Of a stretch of DNA of 64,000 nt, positions 13,883 to 17,175 are shown one piece after another. Location of the stretch: the NCBI GenBank assembly GCA_963806085.1, contig CAWDWR010000001.1, positions 1,733,573 to 1,797,572 of the forward strand, given 5' to 3'. The DNA comes from an uncultured Acidobacteriota bacterium. Lineage in GTDB: Bacteria; Acidobacteriota; Vicinamibacteria; Vicinamibacterales; JAKQTR01. Both the position numbers and the translations under genes were made by a program. Numbering within the stretch: the first letter of the stretch is position 1; the number at the start of each line of letters is the position of its first letter. The notes under the pieces were generated by a model. It was not told the origin of the DNA and searched no databases. It was given only the letters and a program-made list of their open reading frames with translations.

Positions 13883-13905
13883 GGCCCGGCCGCTCCGGCC
13901 GGGCC
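13883..13905 (-). terminator. GC-rich hairpin downstream of the peroxiredoxin gene
   Basis: GGCCCGGCCG-CTC-CGGCCGGGCC, a perfect 10-bp stem, 27 nt after the stop at 13932. There is no U-tract. Confidence 0.4.
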
Positions 13906-13931: not shown

Positions 13932-14480
13932 TCATCGTTTCCTGGCGATCCCGAGTTCACTGAGCTTCGCGACCAGGTCCTGGCCCGCGGTGGCCGGGCT
14001 GACCTGCTTTTCGATATAGAGAATCTTGCCGTCGGTCCCGATGTAGAACGTCCAGCGAAAGGCGACCTGGCGTTCCGGCGTGACGACGCCGTAGGCGGAG
14101 GCCACCTTCTTGCCCGGGTCGCTCAGGATCGGAAAGTCGAGGCCGAGCGACTCGGCAAACTTCTTGTTGTCCTCCGGCGAGTCGACGCTGGCCGCGAAGT
14201 ACGCCACATCGTAAGCCTTGATGAGGTCGCCGCTCTCACGGAGCGACTTGCACTCGGCCGTTCAACCACCGGTGAAGGCCTTCGGAAACCAGGCCAGGAC
14301 GACCGCCTTCTTCCCCGTGAAGTCGGCCAGCGTGTGGGTGGCTCCGTCGGATCCCGGCAGCGAGAACGCCGGCGCCGCGTCGCCCACCTGCGCTCCGCCC
14401 GCCGGCGCCTGCGCCTGCGCCATTGCGACCGCGGCGATGGAGAGGCCCGTCACGATCATCGTCGCTATCATCATTTTCAT
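13932..14480 (-). CDS. Secreted BCP/PrxQ-type peroxiredoxin, probable selenoprotein (UGA 14262..14264 read as Sec)
   Basis: The tail of ORF 14262..15062 (MKMMIATMIVTGLSIAAVAMAQA...[12 protein letters not shown]) and ORF 13932..14207 share one frame and are separated only by the TGA plus 18 sense codons. Read-through gives [18 protein letters not shown]...[12 protein letters not shown]..., colinear with Bcp [19 protein letters not shown]. Confidence 0.75.
14226..14247 (-). other. SECIS-like stem-loop
   Basis: 14 nt downstream of the UGA lies GUCGCUC-CGUGA-GAGCGGCGAC, a 7-10 bp stem with GU in the apical loop. The spacing from the UGA resembles that of the E. coli fdhF-type SECIS. Confidence 0.5.
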
Positions 14481-14513
14481 TACGAGCACCTGTGGACGTT
14501 GTTCAGCTCTTCG

Positions 14514-14541
14514 TCCCGAATCCCGAATCCCGAGTCCCGTC
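14514..14541. repeat. Tandem heptamer array, 4 x TCCCGAR (transcript sense UYCGGGA)
   Basis: tcccgaa tcccgaa tcccgag tcccgtc, located between the thioesterase stop (14552) and the peroxiredoxin start (14480). Confidence 0.9.
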
Positions 14542-14551
14542 CATCCAGCGC

Positions 14552-15043
14552 CTAGTCCCTGGCGCCTTCTCCGTGCCCCTGCCAGCGCGCGAACGCGGGG
14601 TGGCCCGGCTTGACAGCGACAAACGTGCCCCGGCAACTCGCACGCTGGGCGCCATCGGCCTCGAGCGTCGCCTCGACCACCGCCCGGTCGTCGGTGGACT
14701 CGACCACGCGCGCCCGCAGCCGAAGCGGCCCGCCGCTCGGGGTCGGCCGGCGCAGCTTCACGGCGTAATCGGCCGTGACGGTGAAGGGCGGCACGGATTC
14801 CCCGGCGCGCCGCATCAAGTGGTACGCCGCCGTCCAGTTGCAGTGGCAGTCGAAGAGCACGCCGATGATCCCGCCGTTGACGAATCCCGGAAACGCCTCG
14901 TGGTGCGGCTCCGGCGTCCAGTCCAGCACCACCTCGTCGCCCTCCACGCGGCTCTTGATGCGGAGCCCTTTGGAGTTGGCAGGCCCGCAGCCGAAACACG
15001 TCGTGTCGGGAGCGTAGCGGTCCTGCAGGCTCATCTCGGTCAC
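14552..15043 (-). CDS. PaaI-family (hotdog fold) thioesterase
   Basis: 163-aa ORF. It has an N-terminal CFGCGP zinc-ribbon-like motif and FPGFVNGGIIGVLFDCHCNW, typical of PaaI/YbgC-like thioesterases. Confidence 0.8.
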   Translation of the reverse strand: MTEMSLQDRYAPDTTCFGCGPANSKGLRIKSRVEGDEVVLDWTPEPHHEAFPGFVNGGIIGVLFDCHCNWTAAYHLMRRAGESVPPFTVTADYAVKLRRPTPSGGPLRLRARVVESTDDRAVVEATLEADGAQRASCRGTFVAVKPGHPAFARWQGHGEGARD

Positions 15044-15087
15044 ACTCTACCCCCGGGCTCACCCGGCCTCGCCATCCCGGCCCGGCC

Positions 15088-15546
15088 CTAGTCGAGGTTG
15101 CGCAACTCTTCGTCGATGCGCTCCGCCTCGTCTTCGCTGGGCTGAGCGGCGGCCCGCTCGGTCCTGGCCGGCGCCGGGCCCACGGCCCGCAACCGCCGGA
15201 CGACCACCACCACGAGGCCGACGCTCACGACCAGGAAGACCCACGGCGCCACGTAAATCAGGCGGCTGAATCCGCGGGCAGGCGGCTCGGCCAGGATACG
15301 GTCGCCGTACTCGGCCACGTAGATGTCGAGGATCTGATCGGACGTCTTGCCTTCCGCCAGCAACCGGCGGATGTTCTGCTTGATTTCGTCGGCGGCCGGC
15401 GACTGGTGCAGCGAAACCTGCTGGGCCCAGCAGCACGGCGCCATGAGTTTGGATTCGAGTAGCTTCGCCTCGCGCTCGAGGGCCTGCGGGTCGGCCGCGG
15501 CGGCCGCCAGCCACAACGCGAGCGCCATCTGCATCAGCGAGCCCAT
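15088..15546 (-). CDS. CcmH/NrfF-like cytochrome c biogenesis protein (variant Cys-Cys motif)
   Basis: This is the C-terminal 152 codons of ORF 15088..17175, starting at MGSLMQMALALWLAAAAA (AAGGGA upstream). It reads LMAPCCWAQQVSLHQSPAADEIKQNIRRLLAEGKTSDQILDIYVAEYGDRIL plus a C-terminal TM helix, which is the CcmH layout. Confidence 0.65.
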   Translation of the reverse strand: MGSLMQMALALWLAAAAADPQALEREAKLLESKLMAPCCWAQQVSLHQSPAADEIKQNIRRLLAEGKTSDQILDIYVAEYGDRILAEPPARGFSRLIYVAPWVFLVVSVGLVVVVVRRLRAVGPAPARTERAAAQPSEDEAERIDEELRNLD

Positions 15547-15620
15547 GGGATGGTCCCTTCGGATTCGGCGGGCGCCCGTACCAGGACGCCCGGGGGCAAA
15601 CGTTGAGTGTACCGCAGCCG

Positions 15621-17175
15621 TCAGGCTCCAAACAACTGAACCAGCTCCGGCTTGACCACTTTGCCCATGGCGTTCCGAGGCAGGGCTGGGACAGTCGCGA
15701 GACGGCGCGGTAGCTTGGGGCCTGAGAATCCTGGCGCGAGCCCAGTCCCTGAGCTCCGGCAACGAGAGCGACGCGCCATCGCGCAGCGCCACGACCGCGG
15801 CCACGCATTCTCCCCACTCTTCGTCCGGAAGGCCGACGACGGCGCAGTCGGCGATGTCGGGGTGTTCCCTCAGAACGGCTTCGACTTCGAGCGCCGAGAC
15901 CTTTTCGCCGCCGGTCTTGATGATGTCGATCGACAGGCGCCCGAGGATCCGGAATACCCCGCCTTCGCGCGTCGCCACGTCGCCGGTGCGAAACCATCCG
16001 CCGTCGGCGAAGGCCGCTGCCGTCGCATCAGGGCGTCCCCAGTACTCGCGGAACACGCCGGGGCCTCGCACCAGGATCTCGCCGGGCCGGCCAGCGTCGA
16101 CGACCCGGCCGTCTTCGTCGACCAGGCGCACGTCGACTCCCGGAAGGGGCATGCCCACGACACCGGGGCGGCGGTCGCCGTGCAACGGGTTCGACAGCGC
16201 CATGCCAATCTCCGTCATGCCATAGCGCTCGAGCAGCGCGTGTCCCGTGATGACGCGCCACTCGTCGAAGACCGGCGCCGGCAATGCCGCCGAACCGGAC
16301 ACAAAGAGGCGCAGGCCCGCGGCGCCCCTGGACCAGGCGGCCTGCACGTCCGGAGGCGCGTCGTGCCAGGCGCGGATCAGCCGGGTGTAGATGGTCGGCA
16401 CGGCCATGAACACCGTGATCTCGCTGCTGACCAGACGCCGCCACGCATCGGCGGGGCTGAAACCGTCCGCGAACTCGCAGACGGCGCCATTCCAGAGCGC
16501 GCACGCCAGGATGTTGATGACGCCGTGCGTGTGGTTGAGCGGCAGCACGTGGAGCGCGCGATCGTCGGGACTCCACTCCCAGGCTTTGGTGAGGCACTCG
16601 GCCTGCGCCGCGAGGTTGGCGTGGGTGAGCACCACGCCTTTGGGCCGGCTGGTGGTGCCGCTCGTGTAGAGCATGAGCGCGCGTCGCCCGGCTGCGACGG
16701 CCGGGAGCGGGTCGCTGTCCGAGGCCGTCCCGGCGCCGGCCTGCAGCGCACCGGCGATGGTGATGCGAATGCGGCGTGCCTCAGCCAGCGGACGGAGAGC
16801 CTCGCGAAATTCCGGGACGACGATGACGTCGGCCGCGCCGCTGTCGGCGAGGATGTACGCCCACTCGTCAGGTGTCTGATGGGGTGCGAGCGGCACGGAG
16901 ACGCCGCCGGCCATCCACGTGCCCCACTGCCCCGCCGCATAGGCCAGGCCCGGCGGCGCCAGCAGCGCCACTCGCTCCTCCGTGAGATCCGCGCGTCCAA
17001 CGAGCAGGTTGCGGGCGACGCGGGCGGCACGATCGAGCAGGTCGGCGTACGCCCATCTGCCGGCGGAATCGACGATGGCCAGGCGTGCGCCGAAGCCGGC
17101 GCCGCGGCGGACGAGTTCGGGCAGGCGATCCGCAATCATCCCCGGTACGATAGCGCGCCTCGCGGGCCGGGCCAA
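15621..17175 (-). pseudogene. AMP-dependent acyl-CoA synthetase/ligase (MatB-like), apparent +1 frameshift near 15721..15729
   Basis: Adenylate-forming motifs are present (LMLYTSGTTSRPKGV, GWFRTGD, GGEKVS). After ...ELRDWARAR the canonical C-terminus GPKLPRRLATVPALPRNAMGKVVKPELVQLFGA* continues in another frame and ends at TGA 15621..15623. Confidence 0.8.

What the first reader, a model, noticed from the sequence alone, without database searches (positions are those of the whole stretch)
13932..14480. In-frame UGA at the peroxidatic-Cys position of a secreted BCP/PrxQ peroxiredoxin: probable selenoprotein with a SECIS-like hairpin
Two track ORFs (the tail of 14262..15062 and 13932..14207, both minus) are in the same frame. 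They are separated only by TGA 14262..14264 plus 18 sense codons. Read-through yields MKMMIATMIVTGLSIAAVAMAQA...[93 protein letters not shown]... This is colinear with E. coli Bcp ([49 protein letters not shown]...FTLLSD), and the UGA aligns with the catalytic Cys. Fourteen nt after the UGA a hairpin GUCGCUC-CGUGA-GAGCGGCGAC (14226..14247) has GU in its loop, at the distance expected for a bacterial SECIS. A random nonsense codon landing exactly on the redox Cys with a hairpin behind it is unlikely. Ordinary gene callers would truncate or split this gene. The signal peptide implies an exported selenoenzyme, which is uncommon.
Basis: partly seen in the sequence, partly recalled or inferred. Interest (0 to 1): 0.72.

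Follow-up and report, generated by a model that had tools for sequence, protein, structure and literature searches.

The report
Selenocysteine peroxiredoxin gene with SECIS hairpin
This is one real gene for an exported peroxide-destroying enzyme whose catalytic residue is selenocysteine, encoded by a recoded UGA "stop"; gene callers split it in two, but it belongs to an already known kind of bacterial selenoprotein.

Summary
The minus-strand ORF 14480..13932 has one in-frame TGA (14264..14262), at the peroxidatic position of a PxxxTxxC peroxiredoxin motif. A 7-bp/5-nt-loop hairpin (14247..14229) starts 14 nt downstream.

The selenocysteine reading is strongly supported:
- Of 77 related loci from different species, 63 carry TGA at this codon and 14 carry TGC.
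- All TGA loci keep the hairpin, with compensatory changes. The TGC loci lack it.
- Synonymous sites over the hairpin are about half as variable as in the rest of the gene.
- The hairpin meets all four constraints of the published bacterial SECIS model.
- Two independent metagenome assemblies, 98-99% identical to the window, carry the same TGA and hairpin.
- TGA is an ordinary stop elsewhere in the window.
- The window has no sel genes. A Vicinamibacterales relative has a selA-selB-tRNA-Sec-selD cluster, and three assemblies that carry the TGA gene also carry tRNA-Sec.

The protein is a BCP/PrxQ/AhpE-like peroxiredoxin with an N-terminal signal-like extension and an invariant Cys four residues after Sec (U-x3-C). 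Sec-peroxiredoxins (TxxU) are a known selenoprotein family, and exported BCP-type peroxiredoxins are known (PprX). This is a well-supported but fairly ordinary new member, missed by gene callers and by NCBIfam models.

The parts
13932..14480 (-). Complete selenoprotein gene: 182 codons plus stop, an exported BCP/PrxQ-like peroxiredoxin read through one UGA
   Evidence: sequence and translation. (Pfam AhpC-TSA 3.5e-32, Redoxin 4.7e-25). (full-length Cys homologues, 57-73% identical).
14412..14480 (-). Signal-peptide-like N-terminal extension (about residues 1-21/23: MK, hydrophobic core, then AMA/AQA); the end point is approximate
   Evidence: Read from the sequence. Homologues all have a poorly conserved hydrophobic 20-30 aa extension before the conserved GDxAPxF start of the Prx domain. 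In the AF2 model of homologue P0017 this stretch is low-confidence. Cytoplasmic BCPs start at the domain. Inferred; no predictor was run.
14262..14264 (-). UGA codon 73, read as selenocysteine (peroxidatic residue of PKAFTGG-U)
   Evidence: Same codon is TGA in 63 and TGC in 14 of 77 related loci. Identical TGA in two independent JGI assemblies.
14229..14247 (-). bSECIS hairpin: stem GUCGCUC (14247..14241), loop CGUGA (14240..14236), stem GAGCGGC (14235..14229). It begins 14 nt after the UGA, and the loop begins 21 nt after it. An alternative register extends to 14226.
   Evidence: -9.6 kcal/mol. (covariation; alternative register used by CUG..CAG variants). (synonymous-site entropy 0.58 against 1.11 bits; Arg codon CGU in 57/63). 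Constraints of the bSECIS model from PMC13188914.
14250..14252 (-). Codon for Cys77, invariant, 4 residues after Sec in helix alpha2; proposed resolving Cys
   Evidence: Invariant in A1, A3 and A4. Lies inside the helix that begins at the peroxidatic residue in the AF2 model of homologue P0017. The resolving role is inferred.
14487..14491 (-). Shine-Dalgarno-like AGGUG, 6 nt before the ATG
   Evidence: Read directly; not tested.
13932..13934 (-). True stop codon, also TGA, with no SECIS-like hairpin at the required distance
   Evidence: It shows that TGA is still a stop in this gene; 10 of 29 coding-like ORFs in the window end in TGA.

Best explanation
The locus is a single gene for an exported (periplasmic or cell-envelope) BCP/PrxQ-like peroxiredoxin whose peroxidatic residue is selenocysteine.

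Decoding: during translation the mRNA hairpin that starts 14 nt after UGA-73 (loop CGUGA, 21 nt from the UGA) acts as a bacterial SECIS. It recruits SelB·GTP·Sec-tRNA(Sec), so Sec is inserted instead of termination.

Catalysis: the mature enzyme uses the Pro66/Thr70/Sec73/Arg142 active site to reduce H2O2 or organic hydroperoxides. This forms a selenenic acid, which is resolved by the invariant Cys77 one helical turn away into an intramolecular selenenylsulfide.

Recycling: a thioredoxin-fold envelope reductase reduces the selenenylsulfide. The model is TlpA/ResA/CcmG-type proteins fed by CcdA/DsbD/ScsB, as shown for Caulobacter PprX.

Shown here: the UGA position, the conservation and covariation of the hairpin, the Prx domain and fold, and the presence of Sec machinery in relatives. 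Inferred: actual Sec insertion, export, the selenenylsulfide step and the reductant.
For: (1) One in-frame TGA at the PxxxTxxC peroxidatic position; read-through gives a full AhpC-TSA domain.
(2) 63/77 orthologous loci from different species have TGA there and 14 have TGC. Five 'full-length' database proteins with W at that site are further TGA cases called under another code.
(3) The hairpin occurs in all TGA loci and not in TGC loci. It is 93% paired, with 4 pairs and 15 cells changed on both sides; 0/500 shuffles reach it and slid controls are far lower. The sequences that break this register pair in a +3 register.
(4) Third-position entropy is 0.58 bits over codons 44-54 against 1.11 elsewhere. 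The Arg codon supplying the loop GU is CGU in 57/63 Sec forms, while CGC predominates in Cys forms.
(5) All four bSECIS model constraints are met: 5-nt loop, 7-bp stem, G at loop position 2 followed by U, 21-nt spacing, and -9.6 kcal/mol.
(6) It is not an error: two independent JGI assemblies, 98-99% identical, carry the same TGA and hairpin.
(7) It is not a code change: the gene's own stop and 10/29 coding-like ORFs use TGA.
(8) Sec machinery exists in relatives. The Vicinamibacterales locus L264 has selA, selB, tRNA-Sec and selD together. 5/6 acidobacterial selD genes carry their own Sec-TGA. tRNA-Sec is found in three assemblies that also hold the TGA gene: DAOPQX01, CAYYFE01 and CAWJMJ01.
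(9) Fold: the AF2 model of a Cys homologue that clusters near the window protein has pLDDT 91.5. Its best PDB matches are E. coli BCP, M. tuberculosis BcpB/AhpE and S. solfataricus Bcp1.
(10) Precedents: Sec-Prx with PxxxTxxU is a recognised family (PMC13188914, PMC1794560), and an exported BCP-type Prx is reduced by TlpA/ScsB or DsbD (PMC3322552).
Against: - No selA, selB, selD or tRNA-Sec lies in the 64-kb window, and the rest of the source genome could not be read.
- There is no direct evidence of Se incorporation.
- The folding energy of the wider region is not exceptional.
- No conserved neighbouring reductase gene was found; the context is variable.
- No thioredoxin-like WCxxC ORF was found in the window.
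- The Cys at +4 differs from the canonical +5 resolving Cys of BCPs, so its role is unproven.
- The signal peptide is judged by eye only.
Confidence: 0.92

Rival explanations
1. The TGA is a true stop: a nonsense mutation or pseudogene, or a sequencing or assembly error, leaving two non-functional fragments.
For: Gene callers treat it this way (72-aa and 91-aa products). The assembly does appear to contain at least one indel error nearby, in the AMP-ligase gene.
Against: The same TGA occurs in 63 species and in two independent assemblies of near-identical strains. The reading frame and amino-acid conservation continue undisturbed on both sides. A covarying hairpin is tied to the TGA state. A substitution error would not be shared across sequencing projects.
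Confidence: 0.01
2. The UGA is recoded, but not to selenocysteine. It could be read as Cys by a tRNA-Sec-like tRNA-Cys(UCA) of the selC* type, by an acidobacterial allo-tRNA suppressor, or as Trp/Gly under an altered genetic code.
For: selC* tRNA-Cys and allo-tRNAs with possible suppressor function are described, the latter in Acidobacteria (PMC5389517). JGI callers translated some orthologues with W at this site.
Against: TGA is a normal stop in this gene and in a third of the window's coding-like ORFs, so the code is not reassigned. The relatives' UCA tRNAs are called tRNA-SeC by ARAGORN in 120/120 loci, and in L264 the tRNA lies between selB and selD, next to selA. According to that paper, selC* genes were found in Firmicutes, Thermodesulfobacteria, Nitrospirae and Proteobacteria; Acidobacteria are not on that list. 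The SelB-type hairpin requirement fits Sec.
Confidence: 0.03
3. Sec insertion is inefficient or conditional, so the main product is the 72-residue N-terminal peptide. In this reading the hairpin serves mainly as a regulatory or attenuating RNA element rather than as a SECIS.
For: UGA/Sec decoding competes with RF2 in all bacteria. The hairpin's free energy is modest.
Against: A 72-residue fragment lacks the conserved Arg and most of the fold. Strong purifying selection acts on the downstream 109 codons in all 63 species. The position of the UGA on the catalytic residue has no explanation under this view.
Confidence: 0.03

Closest known systems
Sec-containing peroxiredoxins ('Prx' selenoprotein family, PF00578, PxxxTxxU; e.g. 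PrxU of Eubacterium acidaminophilum and deltaproteobacterial Prx)
   Same: Same Pfam domain and the same active-site motif, with Sec replacing the peroxidatic Cys. UGA is followed by a coding-region SECIS. Cys-containing homologues are abundant.
   Different: It is not the PrxU equivalog (49.8 bits against a cut-off of 270). It is BCP/AhpE-like rather than typical 2-Cys. It has a signal-like N-terminus and a U-x3-C pair. It occurs mainly in Vicinamibacteria/Acidobacteriota MAGs, not in the mostly anaerobic selenoprotein-rich organisms tabulated in the 2006 survey. No NCBIfam model reaches its cut-off.
BCP/PrxQ peroxiredoxins (E. coli Bcp, S. solfataricus Bcp1 3DRN, M. tuberculosis BcpB 5EPF) and AhpE (1XXU)
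   Same: These are the best sequence and structure matches: 3DRN 2e-19, AhpE 2e-16, and Foldseek TM about 0.75-0.86. They share the PxxxTxxC motif, the conserved Arg in R-x-TF and a compact single domain of about 150 residues. A second Cys lies in the same helix alpha2 as the peroxidatic residue, as in about 60% of PrxQ members (PMC4749874).
   Different: Sec replaces Cys. The second Cys is at +4, not +5. There is an N-terminal export signal. The score against the BCP equivalog PRK09437 is 76.9, below the cut-off of 140.
PprX, the periplasmic BCP/PrxQ-type peroxiredoxin of Caulobacter crescentus (PMC3322552)
   Same: A BCP-type Prx with a cleavable N-terminal signal and a resolving Cys at a non-canonical position. 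It works in the cell envelope and is recycled by a thioredoxin-like protein (TlpA) fed by ScsB, or by DsbD-gamma. This is the best functional model for how the present enzyme could be recycled.
   Different: PprX uses Cys, not Sec. No tlpA, scsB or dsbD gene was seen next to the present gene.
E. coli fdhF/fdnG-type bacterial SECIS elements
   Same: A hairpin inside the coding sequence immediately 3' of the UGA, with G-U in a small apical loop and loop-to-UGA spacing within the 16-37 nt range.
   Different: The sequence is unrelated and the helix is a short 7-bp one, without the long lower stem. A candidate lower stem seen in some orthologues is absent in the window.

Membership tests
Peroxiredoxin superfamily (AhpC/TSA, PF00578) | Domain match above the curated cut-off | tested here: met
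   111.4 bits against a cut-off of 26, covering profile positions 1-123 of 124.
Peroxiredoxin superfamily (AhpC/TSA, PF00578) | PxxxTxxC(U) active-site motif plus the conserved Arg | tested here: met
   P66-K-A-F-T70-G-G-U73. R142 in R-W-T-F aligns with the catalytic Arg region of 3DRN and 1XXU. P66, T70 and R142 are invariant in homologues, and position 73 is Cys throughout A3.
Peroxiredoxin superfamily (AhpC/TSA, PF00578) | Thioredoxin-like Prx fold with the peroxidatic residue at the N-terminus of helix alpha2 | tested here: met
pLDDT is 91.5, the helix at 64-75 starts at C66, and the top Foldseek hits are Prx structures.
BCP/PrxQ subfamily | Score above the NCBIfam equivalog cut-off (PRK09437, thioredoxin-dependent thiol peroxidase) | tested here: not met
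   76.9 bits against a cut-off of 140. The Deinococcus-type PrxQ model scores 60 against 260.
BCP/PrxQ subfamily | Resolving Cys in alpha2 at CP+5 (C-x4-C), or in alpha3 | tested here: not met
   The Cys is at CP+4 (U-T-A-E-C). An ungapped alignment with 3DRN places it one residue before that protein's second-Cys position.
BCP/PrxQ subfamily | Closest solved structures are BCP/PrxQ members | tested here: inconclusive
   The top hits mix BCP/Bcp1/BcpB with AhpE at nearly equal scores.
Bacterial selenoprotein (SelB/SECIS-dependent UGA recoding) | In-frame UGA aligned with a redox Cys of homologues and conserved across species | tested here: met
   63 loci have TGA and 14 have TGC at the same codon. 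The alignment is A1.
Bacterial selenoprotein (SelB/SECIS-dependent UGA recoding) | bSECIS: 3-9 nt loop, 4-16 bp stem, G in the first two loop positions, 16-37 nt from the UGA, MFE <= -7.5 kcal/mol | tested here: met
   5-nt loop CGUGA, 7 bp, G at loop position 2 followed by U, 21 nt spacing, -9.6 kcal/mol. Covariation and synonymous-site constraint support it.
Bacterial selenoprotein (SelB/SECIS-dependent UGA recoding) | selA, selB, selC and selD present in the same genome | not testable with these tools
   None is in the window, and the source contig (>1 Mb) is not readable. As a proxy, the full cluster is present in the Vicinamibacterales locus L264, and tRNA-Sec is present in three assemblies that carry the TGA gene.
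Bacterial selenoprotein (SelB/SECIS-dependent UGA recoding) | Selenium actually incorporated (75Se labelling or mass spectrometry) | not testable with these tools
   Requires an experiment.
PrxU (NF040737, Sec-peroxiredoxin of Eubacterium acidaminophilum type) | Equivalog HMM score above the cut-off | tested here: not met
   49.8 bits against a cut-off of 270.
PprX-type exported peroxiredoxin | Cleavable signal sequence and envelope location | tested here: inconclusive
   The protein has an N-terminal MK + hydrophobic core + AxA extension, present in all homologues. No signal-peptide predictor or experiment was available.
PprX-type exported peroxiredoxin | Reduction by TlpA/ScsB or DsbD; orthology to CC1673 | not tested
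No conserved reductase neighbour was found.

The most novel reading that the evidence does not exclude
This may be a distinct, so far uncurated clade of exported U-x3-C selenoperoxiredoxins. It would have spread, together with an almost invariant coding-region SECIS, among soil and freshwater MAGs assigned to Vicinamibacteria and other Acidobacteriota, Verrucomicrobiota and Planctomycetota, with repeated Sec/Cys switching. On this reading, selenium-dependent peroxide defence in the cell envelope is a common and overlooked trait of abundant soil bacteria, and the +4 Cys forms a one-turn selenenylsulfide not described for BCPs.
Probability: 0.35. Interest if true: 0.45.

Novelty: new member of a known kind. 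Interest (0 to 1): 0.33.

Why it matters
Practically, this is an annotation fix. Standard gene callers cut the gene into two fragments or translate the UGA as Trp under the wrong code, and no NCBIfam model recognises the clade. The enzyme is therefore invisible or mislabelled in dozens of Acidobacteriota genomes.

Biologically, it adds an extracytoplasmic, Sec-dependent peroxidase to MAGs that come largely from soil and freshwater samples. Sec-peroxiredoxins have mostly been discussed for anaerobes. It also offers a clean natural Sec/Cys pair, with closely related orthologues that have and lack the SECIS. That pair could be used to study why Sec is chosen at a peroxidatic site and how a SECIS constrains a coding sequence. 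It does not change any principle: Sec-Prx, coding-region SECIS elements and exported BCP-type Prx are all established.

Tried and rejected
- Rfam at gathering cut-offs on the whole window, and at E<=10 on 14150..14320, gave nothing useful. The only match was at E 9.8.
- The folding z-score of the 71-nt region was uninformative in this GC-rich DNA, so I relied on comparative evidence instead.
- tblastn with E. coli SelA, SelB and SelD against the window and the 80 orthologue loci found nothing apart from an unrelated GTPase hit.
- A crude scan of the window for other TGA-interrupted coding ORFs found no second convincing selenoprotein candidate.
A tRNA-Sec pattern scan then gave three overlaps. 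The 40 loci not printed in that call were not checked for further overlaps.
- A candidate lower SECIS stem (CCGAAU...AUUCGG) appears in some orthologues but is not formable in the window, and the columns involved do not change together on inspection of the alignment. I dropped it.
- A search for conserved neighbours, such as a reductase partner, found that no gene is shared by more than 11 of 64 loci. An operon-based functional inference was therefore rejected. The CcmH gene two genes upstream is not a conserved neighbour.
- Clustering of Sec and Cys forms did not separate them cleanly, so I make no claim about a single Cys-to-Sec event.
- The BSepDB supplements were not available, so I could not check whether this clade is already listed there.

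Full report
**What is in the sequence**

On the minus strand an ATG at 14480 opens a frame that runs to a TGA stop at 13934..13932. It is interrupted once, by TGA at 14264..14262. The interruption falls in ...[26 protein letters not shown].... With the gap filled, the 182-residue product matches Pfam AhpC-TSA end to end (3.5e-32, profile 1-123/124) and Redoxin.

The hairpin folds as GUCGCUC/GAGCGGC with loop CGUGA, at -9.6 kcal/mol against -4.2 for shuffles. The energy of the larger region is unremarkable for 69% GC DNA, so energy alone proves nothing.

**Comparative test of the UGA**

A protein search with Cys in place of the stop returned thousands of full-length peroxiredoxins. The best are 57-73% identical and have Cys at that position in a PKAFTGGCTxEC motif.

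A scan of one genome per species gave 80 related loci. At the homologous codon, 63 have TGA, 14 have TGC, and 3 were not parsed. Five 'full-length' database proteins with Trp at the site are also TGA genes translated under another code. This was verified for P0002.

Two JGI metagenome contigs from different samples, 97-98% identical to the window over their whole length and 98.7-99.3% over the gene, carry the same TGA and hairpin. Their gene calls split the gene into 72-aa and 91-aa products. A read error or a private nonsense mutation is excluded.

**Test of the hairpin**

In an ungapped alignment of the 64 TGA sequences, the helix (columns 27-33 with 39-45) is paired in 93% of cells. Four of its seven pairs show changes on both sides, in 15 cells. 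None of 500 column shuffles reaches these values, and sliding the 3' arm collapses pairing to 30-50%, except at +3. The +3 register is the one used by the nine or so sequences (CUG...CAG variants) that break the main register. Every TGA sequence can therefore form a hairpin at the same place. The 14 TGC loci have no such hairpin.

Coding constraint does not explain this. For conserved amino acids, third-position entropy is 0.58 bits in codons 44-54 against 1.11 bits in the rest of the gene. The Arg codon that supplies the loop G-U is CGU in 57 of 63 Sec forms, but mostly CGC in Cys forms.

The element meets all four constraints of the published bacterial SECIS model (PMC13188914):
- a loop of 3-9 nt;
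- a stem of 4-16 bp;
- G in the first two loop positions, usually followed by G or U;
- 16-37 nt between UGA and loop (here 21), with an MFE of at most -7.5 kcal/mol.

**Genetic code and machinery**

TGA terminates this very gene and 10 of 29 coding-like ORFs in the window, so the code is standard. The window holds no tRNA gene, no Rfam match at gathering cut-offs and no selA, selB or selD. The source contig beyond the window cannot be read. I therefore tested relatives.
- A SelD motif scan returned 120 genuine selD genes. Five of the six acidobacterial ones themselves carry an in-frame TGA at SCAG-U-ASK.
- A follow-up with an acidobacterial SelD found a Vicinamibacterales MAG (L264) with selA, selB, tRNA-Sec and selD side by side.
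- A pattern built from that tRNA-Sec returned 120 loci, all called tRNA-SeC by ARAGORN and mostly from Acidobacteriota or Vicinamibacterales.
- Three of those loci come from assemblies that also hold the TGA peroxiredoxin: DAOPQX01 (L012/L347), CAYYFE01 (L072/L331) and CAWJMJ01 (L078/L354).

The literature already lists Acidobacteria among Sec-decoding phyla (PMC1794560).

**What the protein is**

The closest solved structures by sequence are S. solfataricus Bcp1 (3DRN, 2e-19) and M. tuberculosis AhpE (2e-16). An AlphaFold model of the Cys homologue P0017, one of the window protein's nearest neighbours in the identity clustering, is confident (pLDDT 91.5). It superposes best on E. coli BCP, M. 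tuberculosis BcpB, AhpE and Bcp1/4.

Pro66, Thr70 and Arg142 are invariant in the homologue alignments, and position 73 is Cys in every Cys form. Cys77 is also invariant. It lies four residues after Sec in the same helix, one position closer than the C-x4-C of canonical BCPs (PMC4749874 for resolving-Cys positions).

All NCBIfam models score below their cut-offs: BCP 76.9/140, PrxQ 60/260 and PrxU 49.8/270. The clade is BCP/PrxQ-like but not a curated equivalog of any.

Relative to cytoplasmic BCPs, the protein and all its homologues carry a 20-30 residue N-terminal extension. It consists of a basic start, a hydrophobic core and AxA, and it is low-confidence in the model. This indicates Sec-pathway export, but that is inferred.

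**Mechanism proposed**

SelB·GTP·Sec-tRNA(Sec) binds the hairpin as the ribosome reaches UGA-73 and inserts Sec. After export, Sec73 attacks peroxide to give a selenenic acid. Cys77 resolves it to a selenenylsulfide. A thioredoxin-fold envelope protein, fed by CcdA, DsbD or ScsB, regenerates the enzyme, as shown for the periplasmic BCP-type PprX of Caulobacter (PMC3322552).

No reductase gene is a conserved neighbour. The gene sits alone in variable contexts. In the window it lies between a DUF349 gene and a 4HBT thioesterase gene.

**Rivals**

- A pseudogene or error is excluded by the conservation data.
- Decoding of UGA as Cys by a selC*-type tRNA or an allo-tRNA (PMC5389517) cannot be formally excluded without mass spectrometry. 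It has no support: the relatives' UCA tRNAs are standard tRNA-Sec, and in L264 the tRNA sits beside selA, selB and selD.
- A mainly terminating UGA would leave a useless fragment, and it would not explain selection on the downstream 109 codons.

**Novelty**

Sec-peroxiredoxins with PxxxTxxU have been known since PrxU. They are listed as a standard bacterial selenoprotein family, with several independent Cys-to-Sec conversions (PMC13188914, PMC1794560). Exported selenoproteins are also known: the periplasmic multiheme selenoprotein MccSep and the substrate-binding selenoprotein SaoB turned up, and periplasmic formate dehydrogenases are a further example from my own knowledge. So are exported BCP-type peroxiredoxins.

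What is specific here is the combination of export signal, U-x3-C spacing and predominance in Vicinamibacteria, together with an almost invariant SECIS shared with Verrucomicrobiota and Planctomycetota MAGs. No curated model covers the clade. I could not check BSepDB.

I rate it a well-proven new member of a known kind, of modest interest.

Noticed in passing
window 15621..17175 (minus strand), frame change near 15727..15735: The AMP-binding ligase gene appears frameshifted. In the long ORF 15088..17175 the AMP-binding_C domain stops at profile position 54/76. The true C-terminus (...LPRNAMGKVVKPELVQLFGA*) is in another frame (ORF 15621..15779), and the long ORF runs on into a CcmH gene. The relative L002 has the ligase C-terminus in one frame, so this is probably a 1-nt indel error of the assembly.
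   Followed up: partly
window 14513..14538 (minus strand): A 7-nt tandem repeat, GGGAYTC, of about 3.7 copies lies in the intergenic space between the thioesterase stop and the peroxiredoxin start. Its function is unknown.
   Followed up: no
window 13883..13905 (minus strand): A perfect 9-bp GC hairpin (GGCCCGGCC / GGCCGGGCC, 5-nt loop) lies 27 nt after the peroxiredoxin stop codon, with no U-tract. It may be a terminator or an RNA-stability element.
   Followed up: no
L111, L128, L137, L146, L164 (selD); L264 4060..9026: Five of six acidobacterial selD genes fetched carry an in-frame TGA at the catalytic SCAG-U-ASK site, so SelD is itself a selenoprotein there. The Vicinamibacterales locus L264 has selA, selB, tRNA-Sec and selD clustered.
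   Followed up: partly
P0002, P0014, P0025, P0048, P0113 (L085 596..1138 for P0002): These database 'full-length' peroxiredoxins have Trp at the Sec position. For P0002 the DNA has TGA, so the gene caller applied a TGA=Trp code to that contig. Such calls hide selenoproteins as apparent Trp variants.
   Followed up: partly
whole window (29 coding-like ORFs): Stop-codon usage among ORFs with coding-like GC3/GC2 is TAG 16, TGA 10 and TAA 3. A majority of TAG is unusual for a 69% GC genome. This is a crude ORF set and was not examined further.
   Followed up: no
L035, L043, L045, L056-L058, L060, L061 versus acidobacterial loci: TGA forms with a near-identical SECIS occur in MAGs labelled Verrucomicrobiota, Planctomycetota and Acidimicrobiia. 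Sec and Cys forms interleave in identity clustering. This suggests horizontal transfer, repeated Sec/Cys switching, or mis-binning.
   Followed up: partly
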